A stretch of DNA of 64,000 nt, from positions 124,001 through 188,000 of the forward strand of contig QPGO01000072.1 of assembly GCA_008632985.1 (NCBI GenBank), read 5' to 3'. Under the pieces are notes generated by a model. It was not told the DNA's origin, did no database searches, and saw nothing but the letters and a program-made list of their open reading frames with translations. Below, one piece after another: positions 3,771-64,000 of the stretch. The stretch is from Psammoneis japonica (Eukaryota). Positions within the stretch are counted from its first letter, which is position 1; every line of letters begins with the position of its first letter. Position numbers and translations under genes: made by a program.

Positions 3771-4389
3771 CGCGTGAGAAGTCTGTGTTGTTGTGATTTT
3801 CCGTGGCGCGAAAGGAAGATGACAGTCGGTCTCCGCATCATTCTGATTCTTGTGTCTGCTTTTGGAGAGTTGTCTCAACCTCCTCGTCCCTAAGTGATTG
3901 CGTCAGATTTTCCAAAAAAGTGTTAATTAATTAGTCGGAAAGTCCTCGACTTTCCGAGGGTCTCCCCTAAGTAGAAATCCCAAATGCTGAATTCTGATTG
4001 GCTCTCGTAGCGCCATTCCTAATCCTCCCTCGGGACCGAAAACCCCGTCTCAAATCTGAAATCTGAATCGTGCCACCGGAAAAATCAAAGACCGACATCA
4101 TGACGTTTTCTTGCTAAATAGCTCGAAATCTACTTAATCTTTTTCTCCTTACCTGAAAGCTACTTATTTGTAAGAAAACGAGCTCCCAGTGCAAGAAAAT
4201 CATGGTGGTCATGCGCGCTGTCGCGCGAGTAAGACCCCATGCAGAACAGGTTGTTCGTGCTTTTCTGCATTCTTCGGAGCGACGTGCAGACTATACTGAG
4301 ATTACCCGTAGAAAGCCAGTAGAAACAAGTAAAAAATCTACTTCATTTTTCTCGTAAAAGGGCCAAAATTTACTTTACTTACCCGACAT

Positions 4390-5690
4390 GATGTCAGTTT
4401 TTGAGTTTTTCGGTGGCACTTGTCCAAACATCCAATCTGCAACGTCATCGTCTCGATGTGTCACGGATGCGTCCCTCCGAGAGATTGGCCCAACACCTCA
4501 TCCCCAACAAATTGTCCATGGCCCACGAATGACTGAAAGATCTGACAACACTGTTGTCCAAAACAAGAGCACATTTTTTGGAAAACATGGCGGGAAAGCA
4601 TTGTGAGAAAATTTGAATGGAAAGAATCACAGACAGCACTCAGAAAAGCATGAGAACATTGGAGCTTGTCATTTGGGCTCGCGTGTGGCAGAATGCAGTG
4701 CATGCTCATGCAACGGCTTCATAAAACACGGCAAATGCCAGGACGTCCTCCTTCTTTTTCCCCTCTAAACTCATCACAAATCGCAAAAAGTCCTCGCCCT
4801 CCTCCTGGCTTTTGCCTGTGCTGAGACAGACAAAGTTTGCCGTCTCGTGAGCAATTTGTCATGATGTGGGGCTCCAGAGATCAGAGATGCTCTTGTGTTT
4901 TGTGCAGAGGTGTGACAGTGGCAGGTTTGCCTTTTTGCTGATTGCCAGGTTCTTTGTCTGCTGATTTGCAGTTGGTCTTTCTCTGGCTGGCAATCGACTC
5001 GCATTTGTGCTGGTGCTTGCGCGCCAAATGTCTTCTTAGTTTCCACGCCCGCTTTGCTGATGATTCTGGCGCTGTGCCACAATTTTCTGTTTTGGCTGCT
5101 GCTTGGAAACTGCCCAATCCCAGTCCAGCAAATCCAGGCCCAGCCGATCCAAGTCTGGTGGCGGTGGCCGCAGCACGGCTGTCAGGTCACAGTCAAAATC
5201 CGGTGGCGGCGGCGGAGGAGGAAGCAAGAGCAAATCCGGTGGTGTTGGAGGAGGAGGCAGCAAGAGCAAATCCGGAGGCAGCGGCAGAGGAGGAGGAAGC
5301 AAGAGCAAATCCGGAGGTGGCGGAGGAGGAGGAGGAAGCAAGAGCAAGTCCGGAGGCTGTCACCTTGAGCGACAGCTGGGTTTCCTTTGCTGTGGCGGGC
5401 CTTGTTTCAGCACAAATTGTTGTTTTGTTTTCACTGACATTGTTGCTTTGGTCTGTTTCTTTTTTGCAGGAAGAGTGAGCCACACTTGTGTGGCAGCCAG
5501 GCTTTGGTCAAGTGTTGCAACAAGAAGGGCGGTGGTTGGAGCAGCACCTCAGTTGGTGCACTGGACACACAGGGGTTGCAAATGCATGTGGAAATGGCAG
5601 CTTTTAGATGTTTGGGTGTCATTGTTTTCTTTCTTGACCACAGCTAGGTCATCGCATGGGCACTGATGACAGGAAGCAAGGAGGGCGGGA
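4390..5690. other. TpA-depleted island 1 (hypermutated repeat relic)
   Basis: About 5 TA dinucleotides in ~1.3 kb by eye; TG/CA-rich; ORFs here lack Tyr. Confidence 0.8.
5150..5357 (+). repeat. Minisatellite of 36-39 bp units (GGAGGAAGCAAGAGCAAATCCGG...) reading G-rich SKSKS repeats
   Basis: Four to five visible copies of agcaagagcaaatccgg followed by (ggn)n. Confidence 0.85.
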
Positions 5691-5977
5691 TAGTCTCTAG
5701 AGTGGAGTGGACACAGAGTGGAGGGGTCGCAGTCAGAGCATTCAACATGAGAAACAACCGGCTGACCAGCCGATGGATGGACAGTTTTTGGGCGTACTGT
5801 AGGCAGGCGGCGGGCCGCGCGGCATGCAACAGTGCACGCACGATAGATTTCACATTTCACAGAAGCGCCACACGCAATGGCGAATTTTGGCCGTCGCTAC
5901 CGTAGCAGCAGCGGACTCGTTTCGGGAACTTCCATCACTCGACTCAATACTACCCTATTCTTTAACAAAGATCCCCA

Positions 5978-7315
5978 ATGCTAAGTAGATTGGTTTCTTT
6001 GCCGCTTCGATTCTTACTCGTCCCCTCAAGCACAGAACCGATCTTTTCTGTGGCGCTCCATCAACAACAGGCGAGCAGCATGTCAACCGCGGCCGCCACA
6101 GCTTACCCTTGGGGCTGTACAGCCTTGGTTGATCCTGATTCGCATGAGGTTCAGATTGAACGACTAGTGGGTTACAAAGACACTGACGCAGACGCTGTTC
6201 GAAGGCTAGATGGCCTGACGAAGCTCCTCGACATGACAAAGAGTCCAGACTGGATGGAGTACATTGAAGTGGCGGAAGATCGAATCAACGATGAGGGTGG
6301 AGCGGGCGCTTACGACACAATGCGTTGTGACATGCTTGTTAATCCAGACCAGAAAGGTTCTAGATGGAACATTTGGGGAGAAGAGTTTCATTTGAATCGA
6401 CTGAGGAACTCGTTTCGATACCTGCTCCATGAGAATGATCCAGAATCGCACGGAACTGTTTCGGAAAGTGCCATTGGGATGGCCATGGAAGACTCCCATA
6501 AGATGCTCAAGCATTTACTTGGCGAGGCAGAAAAGGCAGACATATTTAAAGAAACCCAAGCGGAAGCTTCTAATCAGCAGTTGGAGGACGTTCTCGTCCA
6601 ACCAGTTCGTCTATCCTTGCTGTGGTCCCTTCCCAAGACGTTGAAAGGCCGGGTGGTCGTACGGGGCCATGCTTGCAGCACCACAAAGCCAGTTTTCATC
6701 CATCGACCATCCAAGCCGATTACTGTGACAATTGCTGCCGTTGGTCACAACACAACAACCATGGAGGTTGATGAATCCATGCCAACAAGGCTCCGTGACC
6801 CCCAACACAAGGTTGCTTCGTGGACACGCCTCCGACAGAAAATGGAGAACCCTGAAACGTACATGCCAGAGGGCGTATCCGAAGTACTCATGGTGCGACA
6901 ACGCAAACAAGATGGTGCGTTGGAAGTGCTAGAGGGCCTTACGAGCAACTTTTTTGTCATTTACAAGGACGGAACCATTCGTACTGCGGAGGAAGGAGTG
7001 CTGCATGGATATGCAAGGCACCTTGTTCTTGAATGTGCAGAATTTTGTGGCCTAGTCGTGGATAAGGATAGGCCTATTCTCATGAAAGACTGCACAGATG
7101 GCCTTTGGGAGGAAGCCTTCATTACTTCCTCGTCTCGACTGATCTTTCCAATATCGAAGATTCTCGTTCACACGGACGACAAGACGGACTTTACAGAGTT
7201 TTGGTGCGATCCGGTCCTGACAGAGGCATCCCAAAACCCTGTCAGGAAAGAAAAACAAAAGTGGAGGCAACTGTTGGACGAAATACTGAATCGAGCAGGA
7301 TACCCGGTCTTGTAA
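5978..7315 (+). CDS. PLP-dependent aminotransferase class IV family protein (BCAT/ADC-lyase-like)
   Basis: 445-aa ORF with EGLTSNFF, GVLHGYAR and EAFITSSSR fold-type IV motifs. Confidence 0.85.
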   Translation: MLSRLVSLPLRFLLVPSSTEPIFSVALHQQQASSMSTAAATAYPWGCTALVDPDSHEVQIERLVGYKDTDADAVRRLDGLTKLLDMTKSPDWMEYIEVAEDRINDEGGAGAYDTMRCDMLVNPDQKGSRWNIWGEEFHLNRLRNSFRYLLHENDPESHGTVSESAIGMAMEDSHKMLKHLLGEAEKADIFKETQAEASNQQLEDVLVQPVRLSLLWSLPKTLKGRVVVRGHACSTTKPVFIHRPSKPITVTIAAVGHNTTTMEVDESMPTRLRDPQHKVASWTRLRQKMENPETYMPEGVSEVLMVRQRKQDGALEVLEGLTSNFFVIYKDGTIRTAEEGVLHGYARHLVLECAEFCGLVVDKDRPILMKDCTDGLWEEAFITSSSRLIFPISKILVHTDDKTDFTEFWCDPVLTEASQNPVRKEKQKWRQLLDEILNRAGYPVL

Positions 7316-7580
7316 CAATCTGTCGGCAGAGGCGTGGAAATTAATGTAAACATCTAAAATCTATGTGAATCTACTTCTTATCTACAATAGACAAATGCCT
7401 CCCAGCTCAGCTGTGGATTCGTAAGGCCAATTCGACGTCGCAGCTTTCATTTTTTTTTATGGAATTGAATAACTGGTTTTCCATAAAAATGATGGTCACC
7501 ACGAATAGATCCGCGGCTACCGGTAAATGAAAAGATGGGCCGAGCGGGACAGGAATCGGGACATTGATGCCAACCTGACC
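7205..7580 (+). repeat. Left copy of ~380-bp direct duplication (live aminotransferase 3' end plus dead copy of MMSDH 3' end)
   Basis: Aligns with 9741-10124 from tgcgat(c/t)cggtcctgaca to gacattgat(g/a)ccaacctgacc; MMSDH-derived part has indels. Confidence 0.92.
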
Positions 7581-7589
7581 GAGACCAGA

Positions 7590-8850
7590 AGATGGAACAT
7601 TGAGGAGAAGGTGCAGATGTGGTAAAAGGCACTCTCGGTCTGGGTGTCATGCAGGTGTGTGGGCAGGCAGTTGAGGTTGGTGCGGAACAAAGAGAAGCCT
7701 TTTGCATGAGGCAGGTGTCGGTGAAAGCCAATGCTGCCAACAGGCTGACCACGGAAGCGGAGGCCAGTTGTGATTTCTGGCCCAAGCAGAGAGTTGGCAG
7801 CAGGGCTGAAAAAGGCAAAAGCTTGACACAAGGCATCTGCAGGGGAAATTCTTGGGAGTGGGAGCTGGAGCTGATGAGACACTGGGGAGGCAAGGATGCA
7901 CATCTTTTGGTGGCTGAGTTTTGTGCCATGCTGTGCTGGACTGGCAAATCTGGGTGAGCCACTCAAGAAACCACAGCAGCTCAGCATGTGGCAACCAGTT
8001 GTCAGTGTTGTCCAGCAGGGAAGTTGCAGAAGTTGCATTGGATGGATGAAGACAGGAGTGTGCAGCTCGGCATTGAGAGTGGCTTTTGAGGAGACAACAC
8101 TGAAAAGGCCAGAGCATTGGAGAACGGCGGGCCAAGTGGACAATCTTGGGTGCAAAGCCTTCCAGCAGCAAAAAGGAGTGCCATCTGCTGGAAGCATTGC
8201 AATGCCAGCAGATGTTGGAAGAAGCACAGCAGAGATTGATGAGTGGGAGGGTGGGGCATGGCAAAAAGCTGGGCCAGCATCAGGGAGAGTGCTTCCGGGC
8301 ATGCAAGGTGCTGGGGGAGCACTGTTTGCCAAAAAATGTGGTGGCTGAGGTTGATGGCAAGAAGAGATGGGTTGGGGTGTCTGCACCCTGATGGTGCTCA
8401 ATGTTGGTGTGAGTGGCATGGATGAGGCAGTTGAGGCCTCCTTTGGCCCCTGCCCCGAGTTGCGCCAAGGAACGGCAGACATGCCAGCTGTCTTGGCAAG
8501 GGAGCCCGCCCGCAACACACACCAGACAGTGGCGCCACAGCTGATGGGGTGCAGTTTGTTGGTGTGCAGCTTGTCAAGGTTTGTTTGGTTCTCATGCAAG
8601 GCAATGAAGCAACAGGCTGGTGGGAGTGGGCAGCAGATCTCATTGAAAGCCAAGCTGGCTTGGACGAGGAGGAGTTGTCGAGACGAGAGTTGCGAGGCTG
8701 GGCCTTGTTTGGGTTTTGAGGGATGCAGAGACTTTGAAGAGGGTGCAGGCCTTGAGCTGGTCAGTGGAGTCAGCAAAGGGGGCGTTGGCGGTGCCTGGTT
8801 TGCATTTGCTGAGAGCCGGCAGGAATTGTTCACATCTCTGGAGGGGATTT
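7590..8850 (-). mobile_element. TpA-depleted island 2: probable degenerate non-LTR (CRE/Ambal-like) reverse transcriptase relic
   Basis: Essentially no TA. Minus frame reads CFIALHENQTNLDKLH..LHPISCG..W and AVLLP..GIA, resembling the recalled RT motif YFIALHKD...KLRPIGIG..WRR with Y->C and R->H. Confidence 0.5.
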
Positions 8851-8991
8851 CAAAAGCGAGAGTCCATGCGCGTCTTGCGCGCGACGAGTGAAGGACGGCG
8901 CGCCGAAATTTTTCAACCACAAAAGAAACAACAATTCGGTGCGCTCACACTTTTCACGACGCCAATTCTTGTTTGCTCCATCCACATCATC

Positions 8992-9636: not shown

Positions 9637-9740
9637 GCCAACTCATGAAGCAGTTTCCGGTGGCATTTAGTTCATACATAACAATGCTATAGTTCCTTTT
9701 TCCAATGTCACTAGGATTTATATGTGTCAAAGAGTTGTAG

Positions 9741-10124
9741 TGCGATTCGGTCCTGACAAACGCATCCCAAAACCCAGCCAGGAAAGAAAAACAAAAGTGG
9801 AGGCAACCGTTGGACGAAATACTGAATCGAACAGGATACCCGGTCGTGTAACGATGTGTCGGCAGAAATACGCGAGCAAATAATAATGTACACATCATAT
9901 ATAATCTATGTGATCTACTTCTTACCTACAATAGGCATGGTAACGCCTCCCAGCTCAGCCGTGGATTCGTATGGCCAATTCGACGTCACAGTTTTCATTT
10001 GTGTATAGAATTGAACACCTTGTTTTCCATAAAAATGAACGTCACCACGAATGGATCCGCGGCTACCGGTAAATGAAAACATGGGAAGCGGGACAGGAAT
10101 CGGGACATTGATACCAACCTGACC
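9741..10124 (+). repeat. Right copy of ~380-bp direct duplication (dead aminotransferase 3' fragment plus live MMSDH 3' end)
   Basis: Direct alignment with 7205-7580. Confidence 0.92.
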
Positions 10125-11745
10125 AACATTTATTTCATGTTGAAATTTGCGTGCAGCTGCTCCGCTCTGCGTAAATATGGCACACCCATTGCCGTAGGGG
10201 TTTGCATTGATAATGTCCATAGCTTCCTCCAATGAATCGGCTCCCAGGCATACCAACACCGGACCGAATATCTCGGTCGTGTACGCAACATTGTCAGTCT
10301 TCACTTGTGAGAGAACACAAGGGCTGACAAAATTCCCGTCCTGATATCCATCCACCACTGTGTTTCGACCGTCCAAATCCAAGACCGCACCCTGTTCCAC
10401 TGCCTCCCCTACAATGCGCTCAACTCGTTCTTTGGATTCGGCGGAAATGAGGGGTCCAATATCCACTCCATCCTCTAAACCCGAGCCAACACGCAACTTG
10501 CTTGCCTCTGCTACCAAGTCCTGAACCCACTCGCGGGTGGATCCCACGAACACCACTGCGCTCAATGCCATGCAACGTTGTCCAGCAGCTCCAAAGCCCG
10601 CTCCGACCAAGGCCTTGATGGTGGATTCGCGATTTGCGTCCGGCATGATTACAGCTGAACAACGAATCAAATGAAAAGCAGTACACAAGTCAAATAAATA
10701 ATGGCATTTCCAAAACGTAGATAGCAAAGTAGGACATTCCTTACCGTGGTTCTTGGCACCGAGATTGGCCTGAACTCGCTTTCCATTCGCACTTCCACGT
10801 GCGTGAATGTAGTTACCAACACCACAAGAGCCCTGCAAGATATGAACACATGTATGAGAGACAAGCAAATCATAAATCCCACAATTCAGTATCCCAAGCA
10901 GTAGCAATGAGTTTACGCACCACGAAGGAAATGGCTCGAATATCATCATGATCACAAATGGCATCCACCGTTTCTTTACCGCCATGTACAATGTTCAATA
11001 CTCCGGGTGGTAAACCGGCGTCTTGAGCGAGTTGTGCAAGGAGCATGGATGCTCCAGGTGTCTTTTCACTTGGCTTGAGGACAAATGTGTTTCCACTCGT
11101 GCAGGCAAGAGGAAACATCCACAAAGGAATCATGGCTGGAAAGTTAAAGGGACAAACACCGGCACACACCCCCAAGGGTTGTCGATACGAAACACAGTCC
11201 ATCCCAGAAGCAGAGATCCCAGGCATTGCGTCTCCTAATAGCTTGTCTGCCACGTTGCAGGCCGTCTCGACAATTTCCAATCCACGAAACACGTCGCCAC
11301 GAGAGTCTTCCAGCGTCTTGCCGTTTTCAAGTGACACAAGGTACGCGAGCTCGTCGGTGTTTTGACGAATCAACGATTGATACTCCAACATCACGCGCTG
11401 TCGCTGTTGGACCGGCACGTGCTTCCAATCCGCAAAGGCTTCTTTTGCAGCTTGGACGGCGGTATGGAATTCATCAGGGGTCGTCTGTGGAACTTGGGCG
11501 AGAACTTTTTTCGAATTGGTGGGATCATGTACATTGAACCATTCGCTCGCCGTAGACGACGTAAATTCCCCATTGATCCAATTCTTGTAGAGCACCGGAT
11601 CTGCAGAACTGTCAACCCAATCTCCTGAATTCGCAGTCGAAGCAAACGAACGACGTGGGGCAGAGCTAAGAAGAGCTGTAGGTTTCCAACGGACGGCGAG
11701 TCCAAGGACACGGTACATATGGGTTCTCGACAGTTCAGATAGCAT
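9915..11745 (-). CDS. ALDH6A1: Methylmalonate-semialdehyde dehydrogenase, mitochondrial; introns 10833-10920 and 10655-10744
   Basis: [56 protein letters not shown] introns restore ISFV|GS and NH|AVIMPD. Confidence 0.95.
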
Positions 11746-14868: not shown

Positions 14869-15627
14869 AGTCTTGAAGAACACAAGACCGTCAGAACGAC
14901 ACTATTTCATTTGGCGTTTTATTTTTCTGATGGGGGTAGAACAATGCACTCTGTTGTACGGATCAGTCAAGGGTTCAATAATTCTGAATTCCAAACGTGA
15001 TCAAATGAGCAACGGCAGTGTTATGCTTTCATGCATGGGATATGGTAGTCGCAAGGGGGTCATCACGGTGGGGCAAGTGCCGAAATACACTGTACATGTC
15101 TTATAGAAACTTTTGTTTAAAACGATTGGACTACTCACAAACGCAACCGTAGACTACAGCAGTGCCATGCAGATATCCCAGAGTTTTAGCATCCCACCTC
15201 ATCAAGAGGGAGAGAAAGGACCAAATCGTGCTACGATTCACCGAACCCTTCTGACAATTCATCAACAAAATCAACAAAACTCACAACATTGCTTGACAAA
15301 CACACAACGTCTGCATTCTCTCTCGTGAGCAACTTTGAAGATGCATCTCTTCATGTGGACAACCCACGTGGTGCATGTCTGTTGCTTGGATGGGCAAGAG
15401 GTGAATGGGTTCCATCATCAGGACTCTGGATCACATGCCAGAGCCTTTCACTGTGAGACAACTGCACTGCCATTTCAGAAGCAGCATGGGTGGCTCCACG
15501 AGTGAAGAAAATTGAAGCCCCAAAGACTGATGCTGGAGAGACTGGCCAACAAGCTGTCAAGCATGAAGCACCACAATGTGATTGCAGCCATGGGTGTGGG
15601 AGCCTTGGCGAGTGCTGGGATCCCCAA

Positions 15628-15830
15628 NNNNNNNNNNNNNNNNNNNNNNNNNNNNNNNNNNNNNNNNNNNNNNNNNNNNNNNNNNNNNNNNNNNNNNNNN
15701 NNNNNNNNNNNNNNNNNNNNNNNNNNNNNNNNNNNNNNNNNNNNNNNNNNNNNNNNNNNNNNNNNNNNNNNNNNNNNNNNNNNNNNNNNNNNNNNNNNNN
15801 NNNNNNNNNNNNNNNNNNNNNNNNNNNNNN
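15628..15830. other. Assembly gap (N run)
   Basis: Run of N bases. Confidence 1.
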
Positions 15831-18120
15831 GGGGGGCAAATGACAAGGATGTTTTTGTGTGTGGTTTGCTGGTCTTTGTCATTGTGACAAGTTTTCTCAA
15901 ACTGCCTGTCTTGTCAGAGATTGCTGCTCAGCCAAGAGAGTTGGCTGGTGTGCAGCATCTAGCCTCACAGCTGCTGACATGCAACATTTTGAAACAAGGC
16001 AGCTGTGATGGTGGTCCACCAAAGTTCTGTGGGTTGTGGCCAGGTGAGAGAAAAATTTGTTGTCTCTGCACAACAAAGTCTCTTCACAAAACTTCTCAGC
16101 AGATTCAAGATGAAAGGGCTTTTGAAGAAGCTGCAAAGTCTTGCATTTTTGCTCACTTGATTTGATGGACAACTTCGTGAAATTCCAAGCCACGGCAGTG
16201 GTTTCCCAACCACACCACTTGTTTCCATGACAAAGTGGTTGGATGGAAAGCATTTTGTCAGTGGTGGCACCTCCCATCACACCACTGTCAACATCCTCCA
16301 GTCTCTGGAACTTTGTCTGTGTGTGCCACCTCCTCACTGGCACAAGAACTTGACATGAGCAAGTCATGTGTGCAAAAACACCATTGCACTTTGGGGCCCT
16401 TCACTCTCCACTCTGACTGCCATTGCCACTCAAAAGCTCTGGCTGCTCCGTGGCCCCATCAGGTGCTTTTGTGATGAGCTCCCAGCTGGAGAATGGTGGG
16501 TTCTGCAAGTTGCATCGGCCAGATGATGAATTGTTTGAACCATCTGCACCTGCAAAAAGCAACTTGAGCAACCAGCCAAAGCAAGCGCCGTTGTGCCAGA
16601 TCTGGCACACATGTGAACAACCTGCAGAGAGTGGCACACTCCACATTGTGGATGCTGCTGGCAGCTCCCTCAACCAAGAGAGGGCAGCCCACTCATGTCC
16701 CTGTGATCAGTTCACAGAAGATGATGAATGGAGACTCAAATTGAGGCTCAGATCATGACCTCTTCTTGGGGGAGATGAGGAGGTGCAGTGCAAAGCCCTG
16801 TGGGCCCCATGTGTTGCCATTGGCAAAAGTCCTGAGAGCTTGAAAACAAATGAAAAATCCTGCATTGCAGGAGCAAAATGTGGCACTCACAACGTTCAAA
16901 AATGAGACACACAGAGAGTCAAAGTGGGCTGCATCTCACCAGCTTCATGTGGCTCCCATTGTGCAGCACAGCACACACACAGCAGTCATGACCCATCCCA
17001 TGGATTTTTCATCTCCTGAGAAAGCAGTGCCAGCAGCCTGCTCCAGCTCTGGGTGGAATGATTTTGGATGTTCTTGCACTCCTGACAAAAAAAATCTTTC
17101 TCAAACACTCACCTCCTCCACAATGTGAGTTTTCAAAAGAAAGGCATGCAGTCACATGGAACAACACAACACTTTGCATGTGACAAAAAGTCTTGCTTTG
17201 TTTGAAAATGTCAAAGTCAAAGCAAAGAGCAGATTGACAAGATGTGATTTTGCCAAGTGTCCCAAACTGCATGGTTTTGGACCACCACACCTGGAGTCAG
17301 AGCAGGCCCAGCACCTGCTTCAGCAACAGCGCTGCTGGAGCAATCCAACGGCAGCTGCAAAAATCCTCCAGTTGCTCAGCCAGCAGTCATCATGCCATGC
17401 TGCTGCCAGCATGGTGGTGAGGAAGGTCAAAGCTGACAAAGTGTGGGCATGGTGGCACAAGAGGGGCAAGCAGCAGCAGCATCTTTCTCAAGGAGCTGGG
17501 TGAGCAGAAATGGCTGGAGTGCTGGTGGTTTGAAAAAACAGAAGGGAAGCTTCCAGCTCAGTGCTTGATGCAGCTGACAAGGTGGCAGATGCACCAACTG
17601 CAGAGAATGCCAAGGAGCTTCTTCACATGCTTTTTGCAGAGGCCTGCTTGGGTGTTTGTTGTTGACTTGGGGTTGCATCAGCCTTCGTGCGCCTCCTTTG
17701 CAGAACTGTGTCTCAGTGCAAACCATCAGATGATGGAGGAACCCCAATGCATCTGGGCTCCGGAGCTTGTGTTTGTTGTTTGCACATCCAAGTGTGCAAA
17801 GGGCTGATCAAGAAAACACACAATGGCCAAAGTTTGCAGCAAATTGAAAGCACACACACTGCTTTTTCCAAACAAAATTGGAGTGGGGGACACACACACA
17901 TCTGATGATGAAAATGTTTGTTTGATGGTGTGATGCCACCCAGTCTGCTTTCAGGTGACATCTTTGATGGCTGGAGTTGGTTGGAGCAGCAGGGGCTGCA
18001 AATGTGGAGTTTACATTTGCTCAATTGTGGCTGTTGCCTCTGGTTGTCAAAGCTGTCTTTGACATCTGCCTTGTCACTGACAACAAACAAGTTGACAAGA
18101 CACAACTGAAGCCTTGGCTT

Positions 18121-18420
18121 TTCTCATCAGGAGAGAGAATTCTTCCCCCATCTCTGATGTGCCAGAGGGGCACATTGCTTGTGGGAGCTTCTGTGCTCAT
18201 GGGATGAGGATCTTGGAACTTTCTTTGTTTAAAAACAAAGGTGCAAAGTGCAAACTTCATTGGAAAAGACAGCTCAAACAGGGCTGCTCTCTCTGATGTT
18301 CAGTTGGACAGCTGCTGGGGGCTCTGGCTCAGCATGTGGCATTGTTGATTGCCACGGGGTTGGTGTGGGTGTCAATGTCATGCATCAGCAGCTTGCAATG
18401 TGCAGCACATGATGCAAGAG
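18121..18420 (+). repeat. ~300-bp dispersed repeat, copy 1 (copy 2 at 20613-20938)
   Basis: Shared blocks cttgtgggagcttctg, gatcttggaac, aacaaaggtgcaaagtgcaaactt, gcaatgtgcagca..tgatgcaagag. Confidence 0.85.
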
Positions 18421-19839
18421 TGTGCGATCCATTCAACAGCAACACTTTGCAATGTTTTTGTGTTCCTTGCAGCAAATGAAGTGAGCACAGCAACAGATGC
18501 TTTTGATGAGGAAATGAGAATGCTTGCACCAACATGTTTGCAAGTGACTTGCAACCTTGACACTCAAACTTTTGGCTTGTGCTCTGAGCTTCTGCCAGAG
18601 TGCAACATCTGGCTTTGCTCAGGCCACATTGCTGGACAGATCCCACACACTCCACTGCTGCTGCTGCTGCTGCCACAGCAGCAGCTGACAGATCAGGAGC
18701 GCACTGTTGGACAGATGTTTCAGACCTGCAAATGGATGTGCTGTGGAATGCATGCTGATGCAATGCATTCCCTGAGATGCAAAGAGAGAGTGCCACTCAT
18801 GGCAAGATCTTTGTCCAGGTGGTGTTCACATGTTGGCACAACGTTGCAGCCTTCTGAGACATTTGGTCCCATTGCCTGGCTTCCAATGATGGAGAAATTC
18901 CCTCAAGATGATTCAAGAAGCAAGAGTGCATGCAGAGCACCAGACCCTGTCAGAAACAGACAGCTCATGACATTGGCTGCTTCCTCATTGAAACATTGCA
19001 TCAAAATCAAAGTTGATGCCACAAAAAGACACACGCAGCACAGGGCCAATGCAACCATGCAATTCACGTCCTCAGGGGTCACTGCACCACAAACTGTGGG
19101 AATTGGGGACAACCACAATGGGGTGCACAACACCGCAAGCAACCATGTTGCATTGCCTGTCAGTGGGGAAAATTCATCAACAAATGAGTGCAAAATGAGG
19201 GTGTGAAGAACAGCCAAGATGCCATTTGTCACAACTGTGGCTTTGGCAGTGCACAGAGAATGACAAGCCTGCTGCTGAGAGTCCATCTCAAAGGGACTTT
19301 CCTGCACATCAAGCAACAATGCTGCAGCTGTCCTTGTGCACTTTCAGCGCTCTTCCATTGCTTTCCAGTGTGCTGCACTTTCAGCTGCACTCAGTCAAGG
19401 TCAGCTGCATTGTGCAAAATCTGGCCAGATTGCATTTCTGTGGATGGAGGGAAGTTGCTCAGGGGGTCATTGTGGCACAATCATTCACTTTGCATTAAAT
19501 GTGTGTTCCACCATGAGTGCAAAGATTGTCAAATTGTCATGACAGTCATTGTGGCTCACCATTTTAACAACTTGCATCATTGGGCGGGGCCAACATCACT
19601 CAAAACACCACCTCAAAGAGAAAACACAGAGAACTTCTTCTCCTCACAATCTCAATTTGGTCGCTGCAACACTGGCACCCGGAATTGCCCCAACCCCCTT
19701 TGTTCATCATCACACTTTGTCTCTTGACTGCACTCTGGAGGACATTGTGACACGCTTCCTCTCTGCGCTGAAGAGAAAAGACATGTTGGATGCCTCAAGC
19801 ATGTCATTGTCCTTGTCCTTGTCATCCTCATTGCATGAA

Positions 19840-20590
19840 GAGGACATTCTGTTTGCTCCAACTCCAGCTCTGGCAATTGTGGGAGTGGTTGACTTTTGCA
19901 AGAGCACTGAACAAAAGCTCTTCCAAACTGGTTTGGAAGAGCTGAGTGGAGAGATGTTCAACTGCACTCCAGGCAAACTCTTTCAGTTCCTCAAGAATGT
20001 CAACAACAGGGCCAGCTTGCTTGGATGGAATGACCTGGTCATGGGAATTTTCACAACACCCCCAAGGACCCTGATGACCCCAATGCAGTGCACTCAAACC
20101 TGATCACCAGTTGTGGTGAGATCAGCTTGGAGCACATCAAGAAACACCAGGAGCTGCACATGAGGATGAACCCTTGTTGTGCAGCCCAAAACACCACCAT
20201 GTTTGGACACTGTCTCATTGGTTTGATCTCCAAGAGTGGAAAGGAAAAGATGCACATCCATGACAAGTCCTGAAAGGCTGGAGACAAGATTTCTGGCTGT
20301 CTGCTTCTTGAGGTCAACACTCAAGAGTCATGCCTTGATGCAAACATGACCATGAGCATGATCTGTGTGAAACTTGTGGAGTTCTTTTGTCGACACTTGC
20401 CCACAATTGGTTCACAACATTGCAAAGTTCAATCAGCATGGCTCTCCTCCCCTCATGGCATTGAGGTCTCATGGCAAAACCATGATGGAAGACCTCCTGA
20501 CAAATCTGTTTGGAGGGCACTTGGCTGCTTCTGACAAGAGCTTTGTCAAGTGCACTGGAAACAAGCAAGAGGAACAAGTTGACAAGATTG
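19840..20590 (+). mobile_element. Diatom Copia (CoDi-like) gag relic, frameshifted
   Basis: FAPTPALAIVGVVDF..KLF..FNCTPGKLFQFLK..RA..GW, NLITSCGEISLE, EDLLTNLFGGHLAASDKSFVKC resemble recalled CoDi gag segments. Confidence 0.7.
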
Positions 20591-20612
20591 TGCAAGTGTC
20601 AAGCCCCAGCTC

Positions 20613-20938
20613 TTCTCACCCGGAGAGAGTGGCACTCTCCCCCGTGGCTCTGATGTGCTGTGCTGAAAGGGGCACATCACTTGTGGGAGCTTCTGCACTC
20701 ACAGGATGAAGATCTTGGAACATGTTTTTGCCCAAGCAACAAAGGTGCAAAGTGCAAACTTTGTCAGGAAAAACAGCTCAATCAGGGTCAGTCTTTCTGA
20801 TGTTCAGTCAGCCAGCTGCCTGCTGGGAGCTCTGGCTCACATGGTGTTGTTGTTTGCCATGGGGTTGATGCTGGTGTCGATGACATGTTTGTCAAAGCAT
20901 CTGCTGCAGCTGGCAATGTGCAGCATGTGATGCAAGAG
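20613..20938 (+). repeat. ~300-bp dispersed repeat, copy 2
   Basis: Aligns with 18121-18420; begins where the gag relic ends. Confidence 0.85.
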
Positions 20939-21477
20939 CTCGCAACACTTGTGCTTGGGCTCAACAAAGATGGAACATGCCAACATGTCCCACCAAATTC
21001 CAAGGCTTTGGCCTCTCTCTCTCCTGGTTGAGTGTTTGGTTTGAAGTGCAAAAACCGCAGCTCCTGCCCTGTTGCCTGTTGAGAACAACATTGCCTTGAG
21101 AGGCAGACAAGCTCTTGACATGTCATGTTGGGCCATTTTGAGTCACAGACTTGGGGTGTCAGTGGCCCACTCTCCTTGTGGTTGGACATGCCAGCTGCTT
21201 TGCTGTTTTGCACACGCAAAAAGCACGTGTCTCTGCAGCGTGGATGTTTCGCCATGTGGCATCATTTTTGACAGTGCCCAGCTCACCCCAGCTGACAGTT
21301 TGCACATGCAAAAGTTCACAAGGAGGCCTGCACACAGCCCTGGAAGAAGCCCCTGCAACCAAGCATGGCGCGTTGATGCTGTGCCCTTGTTTTTCGCTGT
21401 GTGCTGCCCACACTCATTGACAGGATTTAAACAAGATTGACCAACTCGATTAAATCCGACCCATCAACCTGAAAAAT

Positions 21478-21541
21478 TGCGATACCCAGGAATCGAACCT
21501 AGGTCCTCTTATAACCGGTTACCGACTAAACCATTTACCGC
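21478..21541 (-). ncRNA. tRNA-like Pol III unit in the 3' LTR (anticodon arm reduced)
   Basis: GCGGTA/TATCGC acceptor stem, A box TGGTTTAGTCGG, T arm CTAGG-TTCGATT-CCTGG, then a TTTTT run. Confidence 0.75.
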
Positions 21542-21978
21542 TTTCTTCAAACTGACAGGCTTTTTGTACATAGTCACACATGTTTCAGCCAGAGAGTGAC
21601 ATACACCTTTAATTCTTCTTAGAATTCTGTCACTCCCCATATGTCACGAAGCTGTCTGACGTCACGAAGCTGTCTGACGTTCCTTTCTTTGGACAATGAT
21701 ACTTCTCACAGCTCCCCTTCTACCTGGGCCACATTTTTCTGCACATGTCATGACCTCCCCGGCGAACTGATAATTGGGCGGCCATTCCGGCCTCGGCATC
21801 CCTAATAAGAGCACTATGTGCATCGTCGGTCTGTCTCACCGCAGCCTCTCCTCAGTTTTAGAGTCATCTTGAAGGAGCACACACACCTAGGTTCAAATCA
21901 TCAACGGTCCTCGCACCATGACAGGATTTAAACAAGATTGACCAACTCGATTAAATCCGACCCATCAACCTGAAAAAT

Positions 21979-22043
21979 TGCGATACCCAGGAATCGAACC
22001 TAGGTCCTCTTATAACCGGTTTACCGACTAAACCATTTGCCGC
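21979..22043 (-). ncRNA. tRNA-like Pol III unit in the 5' LTR
   Basis: Same as the other LTR, with a perfect D stem GTTT/AAAC. Confidence 0.75.
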
Positions 22044-22134
22044 TTTCTTCAAACTGACAGGCTTTTTGTACATAGTCACACATGTTTCAGCCAGAGAGTG
22101 ACACACACCTTTAATTCTTCTTAGAATTCTGTCA

Positions 22135-22490
22135 CTCATCCTCTCATCCAGCACTGCCACAACCCCCAAGTTTGCTTTGAAGAAACTTGGAAAAGGAGAC
22201 AAGGCTTTCCATTGCTGCTGAGAGAAGCCATCATTGAACAGCTCTTGGAGCCACGCAAAGAGCCCAAAGACAGTGGGGGGGGGGGGGGGCGGGAGTTTGA
22301 CGAACCTTGGCCTTGGCGTGGGTGCTTTGAGGACACTTCTTGCCACTTCTTGGCTCTGAGGATTGCCAAGCCTGCTGTTACAGTGCACCAGCAGCACACA
22401 AACCTCATGCTCCTGCCTGCAGACTCCACCAAACTTGCCTCACAACCACCTGCCTCTGTTGGGGCGGCTTGGCCCTCATGCATGCTCTGC
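22135..22490. other. Continuation of TpA-depleted island 3 beyond the TRIM
   Basis: About 1 TA in ~350 bp, then an abrupt return to TA-rich sequence. Confidence 0.8.
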
Positions 22491-23219
22491 CTAGACTACC
22501 TGCCGCAGGTGGAGCTTCTATGTACCGGTGCCGGCATCTCCGTGTCTGTTTCGTAATCTCTTGGCATCAATTATCATATATTCCGCTCTGAGGATGAACA
22601 TCTAAAAAGTTTCGTTGAGCGTTAGCAAAGTACTGTACTAAAGTATCGGTACATTATTATCGGAATCATCGTTTTATAAACCTATGACTATGTAGGTACT
22701 AAATACGATTTTGAAATCTTATTTAAAAATATTCATGCACTAAGAAGGCGAGATTTATTTGCCGTTCATGATTACCTTCATTATATAATAAATGTTAATA
22801 TATGCGGATGATTATATTTTTTTGCCGCAACGCACATAGGAAAACTCCAAAACAGAAGCGTGGCGATTGACGATGTTGTGGCTAATTTCTAATGCGCTGT
22901 CAATACTGTATAATTGCATTAACTTTGACTTCATTGTGTGGGCGAGCTGCAGATCACTCGATGGTGTCTAGTTGTGACAGTCGCTGTAAAAAAAGATCTT
23001 TCGGCTGCCGTCTTTGATGCGCCGCATCTCGATTCTATCATTTTTGCATCATGTGCGTCACATACATCATTGTCTAACGGAACGAAGGCCGCCTTGTTTT
23101 TTGAATTCAGATTTTGGTGCATTTCACCGTTTGAATCGATAGCTTTTTTCGTTGTTTCGCCGTTTACTCCTGAACTGTGCCGCACACAATTTTTGCAAAG
23201 TTCGTACCGTTTCGCAATC

Positions 23220-47749: not shown

Positions 47750-48045
47750 CTTGATAGATATACTTTACGCGCTCTTGTGTCTCAAACAATGCAAGAGGGT
47801 GTATAGCGAGAGGGAGAAGTTACAGTTTGTGGCAACAGGTTGCGCCGCTTCTCCTCTCGTGGGGTGTTGTCTGTGTTGTTCTTGGAGAAGGCTTTGGAAA
47901 AACAGCATGCACGACAAACACGCGCGTTCGTGCGTGGATGACGGACAGAGGCGAGGCTAGAGGGGATGAGAAATCCCCGCCCTCTAGCCCCCCCCCCTGG
48001 TCTGCCTGCTCCCTCTTCCCCCATTTTAACTGAGGCACACCATAC

Positions 48046-49470
48046 GAGCGCGAGACTGAAGTTCCTTGGCCCTTCCACTTCCTCTGCTGATGGATCCCTT
48101 GTTGTTGCTTTGCTCAACAATGATGGCATCTTCCTTCTTCCTTTTGCTGTTGATGGCCTTGGTGTGGTCTCGGATTCTTTGCTGACCACCTTCTCTTCAG
48201 CTCTGCATTGTTCTCCATCCGATCTCAACCCAAGCCTCCCTGGTCCTCTCCTTCTGACCTTTGGTGCTCTGATGCTTCCCATTCTGCCTTTCTCTGTGCC
48301 TTTTCCTCTCCGTCTGCCCTTCTCCCTTTGGCTGATTTCACGCGGTGTCGCCTGTCCTCTCTGACCACTTTGGCAGCACTTGTCGCACTGCCCCCCCCTC
48401 CTGGTGGGCCCTTCAAGCTCTCAGCTGCAATGTGGCTCTTCATCCATCCATGCACACCCTCCAATTTACTTCCTCTCTTCCTGCTCCTTCATCTCCTCCC
48501 ATGCCATTGACCAAATGCCCTTGTCCCTGCATCTGGCGAGCTGCCTTCGTGCCTCCCTCAGCTGTTCCCTTCCATTCCATGTGAGCTCTTCATGACTCTG
48601 CACTTTAAAAAAGTCAGCCGAATGACTGTCTTTTGCCCTTTTGGAACAGCGTGCTTTGCCGCCATGACGGCAAAAATCCCGCTGCAGATCAATGACGAAA
48701 CCACTCTTTCAGACAAGGGGCAGCAAGGAAGAAGGTTTGCAGTGGCACACAGCACCTTTTTCCATTCTGCCAATGCTGCTGCACAACAACTGGCAGAGAG
48801 AAAGAAGAAGGAGGGGGGGGGGGGCGTGAGTGAGAGACAACCACGCTGTGCCGCGCAGGCCATTTCCGCTGCTCTTGCTCACCTGCTGGCAACAACAAAT
48901 TTGATGACAGTCACAGAAAAGCACCATTGCATGTGACATTTGGAAAGTCTGTCAGAACATTGGGGTGAAAGGTGGTTTGTTTCACAGCAGCAGCACACAA
49001 AGACAGACAAAAGAGTGCTGCAGCAAGTGGCTTGCTGACAACCATTGATCATGTGGCAAACTCTGTTTGCACAACTCATGATGGGTTGCAGGTCTTGTGC
49101 TCACTTTTTAGCTTCTACAAAAAGCACACAAAATGCAAACAGCAGCACAGCCAGCAGAGCCAAAGTCAAACAGAGGGTCGAGTGGGGGCTGAGGAAAGCA
49201 AGGGCTGAGGGTTGGCCAGAAGGACACTGCCCAACAGACAAAGCTTTCAGACATTCTGTGCATTGGCACTAAACAGGAATGAGAACACGTGTCAAAGCTG
49301 TGTGCTTTGCTGTGCTTTGTTTGCTGCGCACCTGTGTTTGTTCTTCTTTCCTCTTGTGGCGCCAGGGGGTGTGAGCTGGGCACAAACTTTTGCACAGCTC
49401 AGTTGTTCCCTCTGGGGGTGCAAACTTTTCCACTGGCTCAAATGTCAAACAGGCAGTGGCATCACTGTTT
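48046..49470. other. TpA-depleted island 4 (unidentified degenerate repeat)
   Basis: About 5 TA in ~1.4 kb by eye; TG/CA-rich; G and C runs. Confidence 0.85.
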
Positions 49471-60430: not shown

Positions 60431-60552
60431 TCCATCGCAAGCACAAGTTCAAGTCTACTTGCCTTCTCGCTCTTCAGCCCACTTGTTCTGTTTGAGAATG
60501 TGAATCAATGCCATGCCAGATAGAAGCGGAGAAAGATAAAAAGAAATGAGAT

Positions 60553-63399: not shown

Positions 63400-64000
63400 G
63401 AGTTTGAAGACGGACCACATCCGTCACAGACTTGTGGCTTGCTGTTTTCACCATGGTGAAGCGTGGTGAAATTCAGGAAAAATGATGCAAAAAATGAGCT
63501 GTTCGGCAGAATTCAAGCTAAAAAAGTGGCAACCGGCCACCCTTGAGACTCCTGATTGCCAGTGACTTCACCACTCAGAGTGCAGTGAGGGCACGCAATG
63601 CTTTGGGTGGTGGGCCACATCCTGCGCTCGGGGCCATCTTCGCTGTGCTGCGACAAAATGCTCATGACCCAAAACAGCTTTCTTTCTCTCACAGGGGAAT
63701 GAATCACAAAAAAATCACAAATGAAAGCTTTGGGACAAAAAATTGGCATCCCAGATTCCACTGGAATGTCTCTCCTGATTTTGGTGAAGAAGAAGCGGGG
63801 GGGGGGGCACAGTGACGCTCCCAGCTTTCAGGGGGCCCCCTCCTCACTGCAGCTCTGCTTGTGCAGCAGCGACCCTCTTTTTTGTGGCTGCTGCTGCACC
63901 TGGATGGCAGTGACTGCAACAAGATCTGTCTTGGAGTTGGCTGACAAAAAAAAGAAATCGTGAGCCAAGAAGAGCCCCAGGGAAAGCAGGCTTGCTTGCT
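63400..64000. other. TpA-depleted island 5 (runs off the window end)
   Basis: About 1 TA in 600 bp by eye; TG/CA-rich. Confidence 0.85.

What the first reader, a model, noticed from the sequence alone, without database searches (positions are those of the whole stretch)
15240..21417. Candidate new genome-defence system: repeat-targeted erasure of TpA (and CpG) to TpG/CpA
Seen: about 5 TA dinucleotides in ~6 kb of sequence with roughly balanced base composition, while flanking DNA typically has one to several per 60-bp line. CG is also scarce, TG/CA are in excess, borders are sharp, and the same signature recurs in five more islands, at least two containing transposon relics. Survivors are mostly YTA/TTAA-like contexts. 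Known: 5mC deamination explains CpG loss; fungal RIP turns CpA into TpA and so enriches TA, the opposite of this. Inference: a second, A:T->G:C process acts on TpA in silenced repeats. Candidates are a TadA-like adenine deaminase acting on DNA (TadA-derived editors favour TA contexts) or error-prone repair synthesis by a Pol eta-like enzyme (WA->WG). I know of no description of this in diatoms, but could not search.
Basis: partly seen in the sequence, partly recalled or inferred. Interest (0 to 1): 0.95.

Follow-up and report, generated by a model that had tools for sequence, protein, structure and literature searches.

The report
TA-erased retrotransposon graveyards in an alga
Stretches of dead mobile DNA in this algal genome have had almost every TA (and most CG) rewritten to TG or CA, the footprint of a targeted hypermutation that so far has been described only once, in a 2026 preprint on an unrelated alga.

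Summary
Positions 15233-21417 hold 5 TA where about 245 are expected (Poisson P about 3e-97). CG is at 0.13 of expectation and TG/CA at about 1.9. Borders are sharp, and four further islands show the same signature.

It is a mutational footprint, not an artefact or a native composition:
- The TA+CG lost equals the TG+CA gained.
- Converting the window's own background in silico reproduces the island's dinucleotide profile.
- Two internal repeat copies differ by 12 TG<->CA swaps in 332 nt.
- Contigs of a public run reproduce the island.
- Two islands are frameshifted relics of one reverse-transcriptase family. Its Tyr and Arg positions now read mostly His or Cys, and 80 environmental relatives have normal TA content.

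"Repeat-targeted" is not shown, because a 390-nt host duplication beside one island is untouched. A Pol-eta mechanism is disfavoured, because AA is not depleted.

The process is no longer undescribed. A 2026 bioRxiv preprint measured TpA->TpG/CpA hypermutation of integrated viruses in Bigelowiella natans. This window extends that signature to a stramenopile (diatom-like) alga and to retrotransposon relics, at saturation and together with CpG decay. The enzyme is unknown.

The parts
15233..21417 (.). Main TA-erased, CG-poor island, left part. No recognisable gene.
   Evidence: 5 TA vs 245 expected; CG o/e 0.13; TG/CA o/e about 1.9. Pfam on 6 frames gave 0 hits. A word-index search with its 285-aa ORF gave no homologue.
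15628..15830 (.). Assembly gap (203 N) inside the island
   Evidence: An X1 contig reaches 132 nt into the gap from the right (record 4).
18086..18420 (+). Internal direct repeat, copy A
   Evidence: 74% identical to copy B, and 88% after purine/pyrimidine recoding. There are 12 TG<->CA swaps in 332 aligned nt.
20573..20938 (+). Internal direct repeat, copy B (about 2.5 kb downstream of copy A)
21418..22134 (+). TA-normal 717-bp LTR-type miniature element (LTRs 21418-21632 and 21919-22134, TG..CA ends, 5-bp target duplication CTCAT) inserted into the island. The insertion is polymorphic.
   Evidence: An X1 contig joins 21410 to 22133 without it, and summed contig depth at 21343-22009 is 921.6 against about 58 on either side. 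The span 21418-22137 holds 35 TA and 28 CG in 720 nt. The two LTRs differ by only two substitutions, TA vs TG and TA vs CA.
22135..22500 (.). Continuation of the main island beyond the inserted element
   Evidence: 0-2 TA and 0-2 CG per 100 nt up to about 22500, then 6-15 TA per 100 nt.
7580..8837 (-). Frameshifted, truncated reverse-transcriptase relic. It coincides with the erased zone of about 7540-8800.
   Evidence: A profile of 5 full-length RVT_1 proteins hits it at 43.6, 27.3 and 12.8 bits, collinear, profile positions 294-693 of 1229. phmmer gave 6 hits, best E 1.2e-5. Per 100 nt it holds 0-1 TA and 0-4 CG.
47984..48470 (+). Weak collinear relic of the C-terminal part of the same family, at the start of erased island 48044-49500
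   Evidence: Three collinear frame-shifted hits at profile positions 1029-1186 (i-E 2.2e-5, 0.013, 0.0031). The island has 5 TA and CG o/e 0.28.
4381..5605 (.). Erased island holding a 36-39-nt Gly/Ser/Lys-coding tandem repeat
   Evidence: 3 TA, CG o/e 0.53, TG 1.40, CA 1.71. Repeat family D3. No Pfam hit in 6 frames.
63400..64000 (.). Erased island that runs off the window end
   Evidence: 1 TA in 600 nt; CG o/e 0.30.
7195..7580 (+). Un-erased control: a host-derived duplicate of 9731-10124 (the 3' end of the aldehyde dehydrogenase gene), abutting the erased relic
   Evidence: 86% identity over 399 nt. The 54 mismatches are 23 transversions, 14 other transitions, 11 CpG-type and 6 TpA-type; TA 18 vs 25.

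Best explanation
The islands are dead, mostly retrotransposon-derived DNA lying between normal genes of a stramenopile (diatom-like) alga. After the DNA was already in the chromosome, a trans-acting, region-targeted process changed essentially every TpA into TpG or CpA. These are A:T->G:C transitions that hit either strand at random. A slower, separate decay removed 50-87% of CpG into the same two products; I infer, without testing, that this is deamination of 5-methylcytosine in silenced DNA.

The TpA process matches in signature the TpA->TpG/CpA hypermutation measured in mutation-accumulation lines of Bigelowiella natans (2026 preprint). I infer, but have not shown, that an adenine deaminase acting on DNA and guided by the silent-chromatin state of the target is the most likely chemistry. 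It works less well when a pyrimidine precedes the TpA, because YTAR sites are the ones that survive.

Shown: the signature, its post-insertion timing, its direction at the protein level, and its confinement to the relic. Inferred: the enzyme, the guide, and the cause of the CpG loss.
For: 1. Scale and borders: 5 TA vs 245.1 expected, P = 2.8e-97, with TA-free runs up to 2052 nt.

2. Mass balance: TA+CG frequency lost is 0.0896 and TG+CA gained is 0.0912, with base composition unchanged.

3. Forward model: I converted 98% of TA and 87% of CG in the window's own background at random to TG/CA. This reproduces the island's 16 dinucleotide frequencies (r = 0.97, RMSD 0.0072), against r = 0.67 and RMSD 0.024 unconverted.

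4. Timing: two internal repeat copies (332 aligned nt, 70 mismatches, 48 transitions) carry 12 TG<->CA double swaps at the same dinucleotide. That is the expected outcome if an ancestral TA or CG was resolved independently in each copy after duplication. Identity rises from 74% to 88% when transitions are hidden by recoding.

5. Direction: in the RT relic, at 7 columns where 3 or more of 5 intact relatives have Tyr, the relic has His 2, Cys 2, Ser, Leu, Phe and no Tyr. At 12 Arg columns it has His 4, Cys 1 and Arg 1. Leu (28 of 53), Pro (19 of 28), Gly (12 of 17) and Trp (3 of 3) are mostly kept. Relic Tyr is 0.29% and Cys 5.6%, against 2.3-3.7% and 1.1-1.6% in the intact proteins.

6. Not a property of the family: all 80 metagenome loci of the same RT family have TA o/e 0.44-0.78, and none is below 0.4.

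7. Target: the erased zone of about 7540-8800 coincides with the relic at 7580-8837. The adjacent host duplication is not erased.

8. Reality of the sequence: X1 contigs cover 15831-18998 with 23 substitutions and 11 gaps. They also cover 4396-5767 and 20544-22293, and lack the 717-bp insertion. Among the 40 displayed differences (of 125), TA at 15960 and 4723 in the reference reads CA and TG in X1, and 5011/12 and 17327/28 are TG<->CA swaps.

9. Precedent: in B. natans, 230 of 231 de novo mutations in two integrated viral regions were A->G or T->C, all at TpA. The TpA-poor, CpA+TpG-rich clusters there are enriched in RT and DDE domains (preprint Results).

10. AA is not depleted, and TG and CA are equal without strand runs (659 vs 650, z = -0.47).
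Against: - There is no nucleotide-level outgroup. The intact relatives are only about 30-38% identical as proteins, so direction rests on 7 Tyr and 12 Arg columns and on swap logic.
- The flagged main island has no identified origin, so 'TE-derived' is shown for two of the islands only.
- There is no evidence that the process is active now. The second island shows no difference between the reference and X1. The differences that were listed in the other islands include as many CpG-type and miscellaneous changes as TpA-type ones.
- The two LTR differences (TA vs TG, TA vs CA) cannot be polarised. My own arithmetic from the counts puts the chance expectation at about 0.06 if all substitutions were transitions.
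- X1 may be the same strain or its other haplotype, so it is not fully independent.
- No enzyme could be sought, because no genome was available.
- The lineage is placed only by homologues at 51-56% identity.
Confidence: 0.7

Rival explanations
1. The regional TpA->TpG/CpA process is the same, but the chemistry acts on thymine rather than adenine. Thymine at TpA would be modified enzymatically (for example oxidised to 5-hydroxymethyl- or 5-formyluracil by a TET/JBP-type dioxygenase), mispair with G and yield T->C. CpG loss would then come from the parallel C5 modification of cytosine.
For: Sequence alone cannot tell A->G on one strand from T->C on the other. Both erased steps, TA and CG, are self-complementary pyrimidine-purine steps, which suits enzymes that modify the pyrimidine on both strands. 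From recall, untested: 5-hydroxymethyluracil at TpA is known in dinoflagellates, and 5-formyluracil mispairs with G.
Against: No such modification or enzyme was examined here. The only study of the phenomenon favours adenine deamination, itself untested. The two erasures are decoupled in extent: 0-3% of TA is left everywhere, but 13-53% of CG.
Confidence: 0.12
2. Editing happened on RNA. Transposon double-stranded RNA was hyper-edited A-to-I in UA context, then reverse-transcribed and integrated, so the islands arrived already converted.
For: At least two islands are retroelement relics. From recall, and as discussed in the preprint: ADAR- and ADAT-type enzymes prefer U before the edited A. 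The erased zone ends within about 40 nt of the relic's end.
Against: Both strands are converted equally, with no strand patches in the main island (TG 659, CA 650, runs z = -0.47). Two copies within one island were converted independently. The displayed reference/X1 differences include 2 TA<->TG/CA changes and 2 TG<->CA swaps inside islands at fixed loci. In B. natans the mutations arise in situ in single-copy integrated DNA. Erasure of about 98% of sites is far beyond known RNA hyper-editing (recalled).
Confidence: 0.07
3. The islands are functional sequences, or foreign DNA, whose native composition avoids TA and CG. This would be selection or donor composition rather than mutation in place.
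For: Moderate TA and CG avoidance is common in genomes and viruses. The main island has no identified origin.
Against: An o/e of 0.01 over 6 kb is far beyond any avoidance I know of (recalled). The relics are frameshifted and truncated. TG<->CA swaps separate paralogous copies. Tyr positions now read His or Cys. All 80 relatives of the family have normal TA content.
Confidence: 0.04
4. The signature is a sequencing or assembly artefact.
For: The island holds a 203-N gap. The one public run that holds it may come from the same strain.
Against: X1 contigs at depth about 55 reproduce three islands at about 99% identity and differ structurally, since they lack the 717-bp insertion. Flanking genes in the same contigs are normal. 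No known platform error turns TA and CG into TG/CA region by region (recalled).
Confidence: 0.02

Closest known systems
TpA->TpG/CpA hypermutation of integrated giant-virus and virophage DNA in Bigelowiella natans (Mettrop et al., bioRxiv 10.64898/2026.01.13.699255; abstract, whole Results and Discussion read; supplements closed)
   Same: The dinucleotide target and products are identical. The process is regional. TpA-poor, CpA+TpG-rich clusters hold RT/DDE domains and many unannotatable ORFs. No enzyme is identified; an ADAT2-like candidate is proposed.
   Different: That case is a rhizarian, this one a stramenopile. There, de novo rates were measured and the hypermutable virus is only partly depleted (Rho TpA 0.45). 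Here only the end state is seen, at saturation (o/e 0.01). The identified targets here are retrotransposon relics. Here CpG is co-depleted; the preprint's main text never uses the word CpG. A flank preference (YTAR survivors) is seen here and is not reported in the text I read.
Repeat-induced point mutation (RIP) of ascomycete fungi
   Same: Post-insertion, regional transition hypermutation that kills transposons, with sharp borders and dinucleotide specificity.
   Different: The direction is opposite: RIP makes CpA into TpA and enriches TA. RIP depends on duplication, whereas here a 390-nt duplicate is untouched and the islands share no similarity within the window. The RID/Dim-2 machinery could not be tested.
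CpG decay of cytosine-methylated transposons (methylated TEs in diatoms are from recall, not checked here)
   Same: CpG->TpG/CpA in silent repeats; CG o/e 0.13-0.53 in the islands.
   Different: It cannot remove TpA. The extent of CpG loss varies between islands while TpA loss is complete in all.
Deaminase editing of retroelements and viruses (APOBEC on DNA, ADAR on RNA)
   Same: Hypermutation of invading nucleic acid with a fixed neighbour preference.
   Different: APOBEC gives C->T/G->A in TC/CC context. ADAR acts on RNA and on one strand per molecule. Here the changes are A:T->G:C, strictly at TpA, symmetric between strands and made in place.
ADAT2/ADAT3 with DNA activity (amphioxus BjADAT2, PMC10354150; only the search listing and start of the abstract seen, plus the preprint's account)
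   Same: An enzyme class reported to perform both A-to-I and C-to-U deamination of DNA. From recall, its natural tRNA substrate has U before the edited A.
   Different: No such gene was examined for this organism. No dsDNA, chromatin-guided activity is known.

Membership tests
TpA-targeted hypermutation of foreign DNA (B. natans type) | Clustered TpA depletion with matching CpA+TpG enrichment | tested here: met
   TA o/e 0.00-0.06 and TG/CA o/e 1.3-1.9 in six segments. TA+CG lost 0.0896, TG+CA gained 0.0912.
TpA-targeted hypermutation of foreign DNA (B. natans type) | The changes are A:T->G:C transitions at TpA, made in place | tested here: met
   Indirect. Tyr columns read His 2, Cys 2, Tyr 0 of 7. 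12 TG<->CA swaps separate paralogous copies. The forward model gives r = 0.97. No close nucleotide outgroup was available.
TpA-targeted hypermutation of foreign DNA (B. natans type) | The targets are foreign or mobile, non-host sequence | tested here: inconclusive
   Met for 7580-8837. Weakly met for 47984-48470. The main island and two others have no identified origin.
TpA-targeted hypermutation of foreign DNA (B. natans type) | A de novo mutation rate raised about 1000-fold in the region | not testable with these tools
   This needs mutation-accumulation or pedigree data. Reference-vs-X1 divergence is 0.7-1.1% in two islands against 0.015-0.036% in flanking gene contigs, but it is unpolarised and confounded by constraint.
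Fungal RIP | C->T at CpA, giving TpA enrichment | tested here: not met
   TA is erased and CA/TG enriched.
Fungal RIP | Dependence on sequence duplication | tested here: inconclusive
   A 390-nt duplicate at 86% identity is not erased. No similarity between islands within 64 kb. Copy number across the genome is unknown.
5mC-driven CpG decay alone | Accounts for all dinucleotide changes | tested here: not met
   It explains the CG loss only. TA loss (0.040 of dinucleotides) is nearly half of the total.
Pol-eta type WA->WG error-prone synthesis | A mutated after both A and T (the WA motif is from recall) | tested here: not met
   AA frequency is 0.081 in the island against 0.074 in the background.
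RNA hyper-editing before integration (ADAR-like) | Strand-asymmetric A->G along the transcript | tested here: not met
   TG 659 vs CA 650, runs test z = -0.47, in the main island.
Non-LTR/RT retroelement (the relic in 7580-8837) | Reverse-transcriptase domain | tested here: met
   The relic itself gets no Pfam hit. It aligns at 43.6 + 27.3 + 12.8 bits to a profile of five 1145-1279-aa proteins, all of which carry RVT_1.

The most novel reading that the evidence does not exclude
One chromatin-guided machinery erases both self-complementary pyrimidine-purine steps, TpA and CpG, in invading DNA. Candidates are a dual adenine/cytosine DNA deaminase of the ADAT2/3 type, or a paired pyrimidine-C5 modification route. 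On this reading it is an ancient defence that works like RIP, is shared across the SAR supergroup (stramenopiles and rhizarians at least), and permanently rewrites transposons and integrated viruses into TA-free, stop-poor 'graveyard' DNA.
Probability: 0.15. Interest if true: 0.9.

Novelty: new member of a known kind. Interest (0 to 1): 0.7.

Why it matters
TpA-specific A:T->G:C hypermutation of foreign DNA has, in the library I searched, one description: a 2026 preprint on a chlorarachniophyte. Its enzyme and guide are unknown.

Finding the same footprint in a stramenopile alga, at saturation and on retrotransposon relics, has three consequences:
- The process is not a curiosity of one species. 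It may be a widespread counterpart of RIP in eukaryotes.
- It gives a second lineage for phylogenetic profiling of candidate deaminases.
- It gives an end-state signature (TA o/e about 0.01, YTAR survivors, Tyr->His/Cys in relic ORFs) that can be searched for in any genome.

Two practical points follow. Such islands yield long spurious ORFs, because TGA is the only stop codon left. They also hide transposons from standard domain searches: Pfam missed the RT relic here.

Tried and rejected
- **Whole genome.** None is held for this window, so there was no genome-wide island scan and no search for deaminase, DNMT or TET genes.
- **Pfam on the islands.** Six-frame translations gave 0 families for the main island (6 frames). 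For the other islands, 24 frames gave 0 families except a weak Histone-fold match (20.2 bits, below cut-off). That match belongs to a likely host gene at about 9150-9640.
- **Main-island ORF.** A word-index homologue search with the 285-aa ORF gave none of 217 candidates at E <= 0.001.
- **Same RT family in the main island.** Only non-significant hits (tblastn E 0.39; HMM i-E 6).
- **RNA genes.** Rfam at gathering threshold gave 0 matches. ARAGORN gave 0 tRNAs, although the small element's LTR looks partly tRNA-like by eye.
- **Possible un-erased relative of the internal repeat.** In one search, short X1/X2 contigs share 39 nt (20680-20718) with the internal repeat and then run on into TA- and CG-containing sequence. 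A degenerate 39-nt pattern found nothing in metagenome contigs or viral contigs.
- **Expression.** No RNA holder is listed. X2 behaves like transcript contigs, with two GT..AG joints of 88-90 nt in the aldehyde dehydrogenase gene. It shows depth 0 over 15340-20675 (4.86 in the 20676-21342 bin) and over 7336-9336.
- **Earlier findings of this scan.** Nothing for this genome. A word search returned phage cases of CA/TG bias that did not bear on this reading.
- **Strand patches of TG vs CA.** None in the main island. Local skews in the small islands are no larger than those in coding background windows, so I drew no conclusion.
- **GC-biased gene conversion.** Rejected, because island GC (0.49) equals background GC.
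- **Literature.** Seven full-text searches found no description in diatoms or other stramenopiles, and only the B. natans preprint for the process itself. The preprint's supplementary tables could not be opened; its Table S2 of mutations may hold the flank contexts.

Full report
**1. Observation**

The flagged stretch, 15240-21417, has 5 TA (obs/exp 0.01), 44 CG (0.13), 702 TG (1.97) and 696 CA (1.91), with balanced bases. The window as a whole has TA o/e 0.52 and CG 0.86. TA-free runs reach 2052 nt, and the borders lie at 15233 and 21428. At the non-island TA rate, 245.1 TA are expected, giving Poisson P = 2.8e-97.

The same signature is present at 4381-5605, at about 7540-8800 (TA-free to 9174), at 48044-49500 and at 63400-64000. 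A sixth segment, 22135 to about 22500, is the main island continuing beyond an inserted element (section 4). A 203-N assembly gap lies at 15628-15830.

The few surviving TA sites are mostly in YTAR contexts: 11 of 19, against 352 of 2170 in the background, p = 4e-5.

**2. Is it a mutational footprint?**

Four results say that it is.
- *Mass balance.* The island has lost 0.0896 of its dinucleotides as TA+CG and gained 0.0912 as TG+CA. Base composition is unchanged.
- *Forward model.* I took the window's own non-island DNA and converted 98% of TA and 87% of CG at random to TG or CA. This reproduces all 16 dinucleotide frequencies of the island (r = 0.97, RMSD 0.0072). Unconverted background gives r = 0.67 and RMSD 0.024.
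- *Independent conversion of two copies.* The island holds an internal direct repeat, 18086-18420 and 20573-20938. In 332 aligned positions there are 70 mismatches, 48 of them transitions. Twelve dinucleotides read TG in one copy and CA in the other. Such double differences are what is expected if an ancestral TA or CG was resolved independently in each copy, so the conversion came after the duplication. With transitions hidden by purine/pyrimidine recoding, identity rises from 74% to 88%.
- *Symmetry.* TG and CA are equal and randomly interleaved in the main island (659 vs 650, runs z = -0.47). Both strands were therefore hit alike.

**3. Is the sequence real?**

One public run (X1, 2019) holds 82% of the island's sampled words. 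Its contigs cover 15831-18998 with 23 substitutions and 11 gaps. They also cover 4396-5767 and 20544-22293, at depth about 50-60. One flanking contig of 6.6 kb differs at a single base.

X1 may be the same strain or its other haplotype, so it is supporting evidence rather than fully independent evidence. It does differ structurally from the reference (section 4). Only 40 of the 125 differences were displayed. Among those 40, the reference's surviving TA at 15960 and 4723 read CA and TG in X1, and 5011/12 and 17327/28 are TG<->CA swaps. Many others are CpG-type or miscellaneous.

**4. What are the islands?**

Pfam sees nothing in any frame of the main island. In the other islands it sees only a weak histone-fold match, which belongs to a probable host gene at about 9150-9640.

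An exhaustive phmmer search with the 467-aa open frame of the second island gave six weak hits, best E 1.2e-5. Two of them carry RVT_1. A profile search then recovered five full-length proteins of 1145-1279 aa, all with RVT_1. A profile built from these five hits the minus strand collinearly at 8837-8688, 8465-7947 and 7936-7580 (12.8, 27.3 and 43.6 bits; profile positions 294-693 of 1229), with a frameshift. This is a truncated reverse-transcriptase relic.

Three weaker collinear pieces (profile positions 1029-1186) lie at 47984-48470 on the plus strand, at the start of the fourth island. The zone with 0-1 TA and 0-4 CG per 100 nt (about 7540-8800) coincides with the relic.

The origin of the main island remains unknown.

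At 21418-22134 the main island is interrupted by a 717-bp element. It has LTRs of 215 and 216 nt with TG..CA ends and a 5-bp target duplication. The span 21418-22137 holds 35 TA and 28 CG in 720 nt. Summed contig depth at 21343-22009 is 921.6, against about 58 on either side. The element is absent from an X1 contig that joins 21410 to 22133. It is therefore a young, polymorphic insertion.

**5. Direction of change**

At seven alignment columns where at least 3 of the 5 intact proteins have Tyr, the relics have His 2, Cys 2, Ser, Leu and Phe, and never Tyr. At twelve Arg columns they have His 4, Cys 1, Ser 3, Leu 2, Lys 1 and Arg 1. Other residues are largely kept: Leu 28 of 53, Pro 19 of 28, Gly 12 of 17, Trp 3 of 3.

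Tyr (TAY) to His (CAY) or Cys (TGY), and Arg (CGN) to His or Cys, are the products predicted for TA->CA/TG and CG->CA/TG. Relic Tyr is 0.29% and Cys 5.6%, against 2.3-3.7% and 1.1-1.6% in the intact proteins.

The family itself is not TA-poor. All 80 loci of this family fetched from metagenomes have TA o/e 0.44-0.78, median 0.685. That fetch is biased towards intact copies, because it seeds on conserved peptides.

**6. What is targeted?**

Repeats as such are not shown to be the target.
- The islands share no similarity with each other in the window, even after recoding.
- A 390-nt host-derived duplication (7195-7580 against 9731-10124, 86% identity) abuts the erased relic. Its differences are an ordinary mix: 23 transversions, 14 other transitions, 11 CpG-type and 6 TpA-type. 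It keeps 18 TA against 25 in its partner.
- The young LTR element inside the island is essentially untouched. Its two LTRs differ by only two substitutions, TA vs TG and TA vs CA. This is suggestive, but it cannot be polarised. My own arithmetic from the counts puts the chance expectation at about 0.06 if all substitutions were transitions.

**7. Mechanism**

- The strict TpA requirement, with AA not depleted (0.081 vs 0.074), argues against Pol-eta-type WA mutagenesis.
- Unchanged GC content argues against biased gene conversion.
- Strand symmetry and in-place divergence argue against RNA editing before integration.
- CpG loss varies between islands (13-53% left) while TpA loss is complete in all of them. 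The two processes are therefore at least kinetically separate, and the TpA process is the faster.
- No deaminase, methyltransferase or dioxygenase domain is present among the window's ORFs. Those scanned were 25 ORFs of at least 200 aa and 71 further stop-to-stop frames of at least 110 aa. The agent therefore acts in trans.
- The chemistry (adenine deamination on DNA, or thymine modification) and the guide are inferences.

**8. Comparison with what is known**

Seven full-text searches returned one relevant work: Mettrop et al., bioRxiv 10.64898/2026.01.13.699255. I read its abstract, whole Results and whole Discussion and ran a term search on it.

In mutation-accumulation lines of Bigelowiella natans, 231 of 302 nuclear mutations fell in an integrated giant virus and a virophage. 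Of these, 230 were A->G or T->C, all at TpA. Rates were about 6e-7 per site per generation, and the mutations arose in only some lines. Genome-wide TpA-poor, CpA+TpG-rich clusters there are enriched in RT and DDE domains and in unannotated ORFs. An ADAT2-like protein is proposed as the deaminase. The text does not mention diatoms, stramenopiles or CpG. I could not open its supplements.

The present window shows the same signature in another lineage. Its flanking genes are eukaryotic and intron-poor: HA domain, DM13/DOMON, FtsH, GH3, cytochrome-b5 desaturase and DUF6824. The desaturase's best homologues, at 51-56% identity, are from diatoms (Stephanopyxis turris, Nitzschia, Pseudo-nitzschia) and other ochrophytes. 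None is close, so 'diatom' is likely but not established, and the organism is certainly not B. natans.

**9. Verdict**

This is a new member of a very recently described kind of genome hypermutation. It is seen here at its end state, on retrotransposon relics, together with CpG decay, and with a flank preference (YTAR survivors) that can be tested. The enzyme, the guide and current activity remain open.

Noticed in passing
window 21418-22134: A 717-bp LTR-type miniature retroelement: LTRs of 215 and 216 nt with TG..CA ends and target duplication CTCAT. Summed contig depth over it in X1 and X2 is far above that of its flanks. It is absent from one X1 contig, so the insertion is polymorphic. By eye, part of the LTR resembles the T-arm of a tRNA in reverse, but ARAGORN and Rfam call nothing.
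   Followed up: partly
window 7195-7580 and 9731-10124: A direct duplication of 386-399 nt (86% identity) of the 3' end of the aldehyde dehydrogenase gene. It brackets the RT relic and a small histone-fold gene at about 9150-9640. It looks like a very long target duplication, or a segmental duplication made at insertion.
   Followed up: partly
window 20680-20718: Short contigs of runs X1 and X2 share these 39 nt with the island's internal repeat and then continue into TA- and CG-containing sequence. They may come from an un-erased, perhaps transcribed, relative of the island's ancestor.
   Followed up: partly
window 5196-5371: A 36-39-nt tandem repeat coding for Gly-rich SKSKSGG units lies inside a TA-erased island. 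X2 contigs match it only partly and run on elsewhere, so similar repeats exist at other loci.
   Followed up: no
window 52385-53630: Three tandem copies of about 420 nt (70-93% identity) inside the DM13/DOMON gene, matching its three DM13 domains.
   Followed up: no
window 60545-61968: A cluster of direct repeats: 217-nt tandem copies at 60905-61338, and about 250-nt copies spaced 1.17 kb apart at 60545-60807 and 61721-61968. TA content is normal and no function is assigned.
   Followed up: no
window 10654-10920: Two introns of 88-90 nt with GT..AG ends, on the minus strand in the aldehyde dehydrogenase gene, are spliced out in an X2 contig. X2 therefore behaves like a transcriptome, although its kind is recorded only as 'DNA?'.
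   Followed up: no
window 4800-5099, 8300-8499, 49100-49299: Local TG-versus-CA skews inside the small islands (for example 45 vs 17). They could mark strand-biased conversion, but they are no larger than skews in ordinary coding windows.
   Followed up: partly
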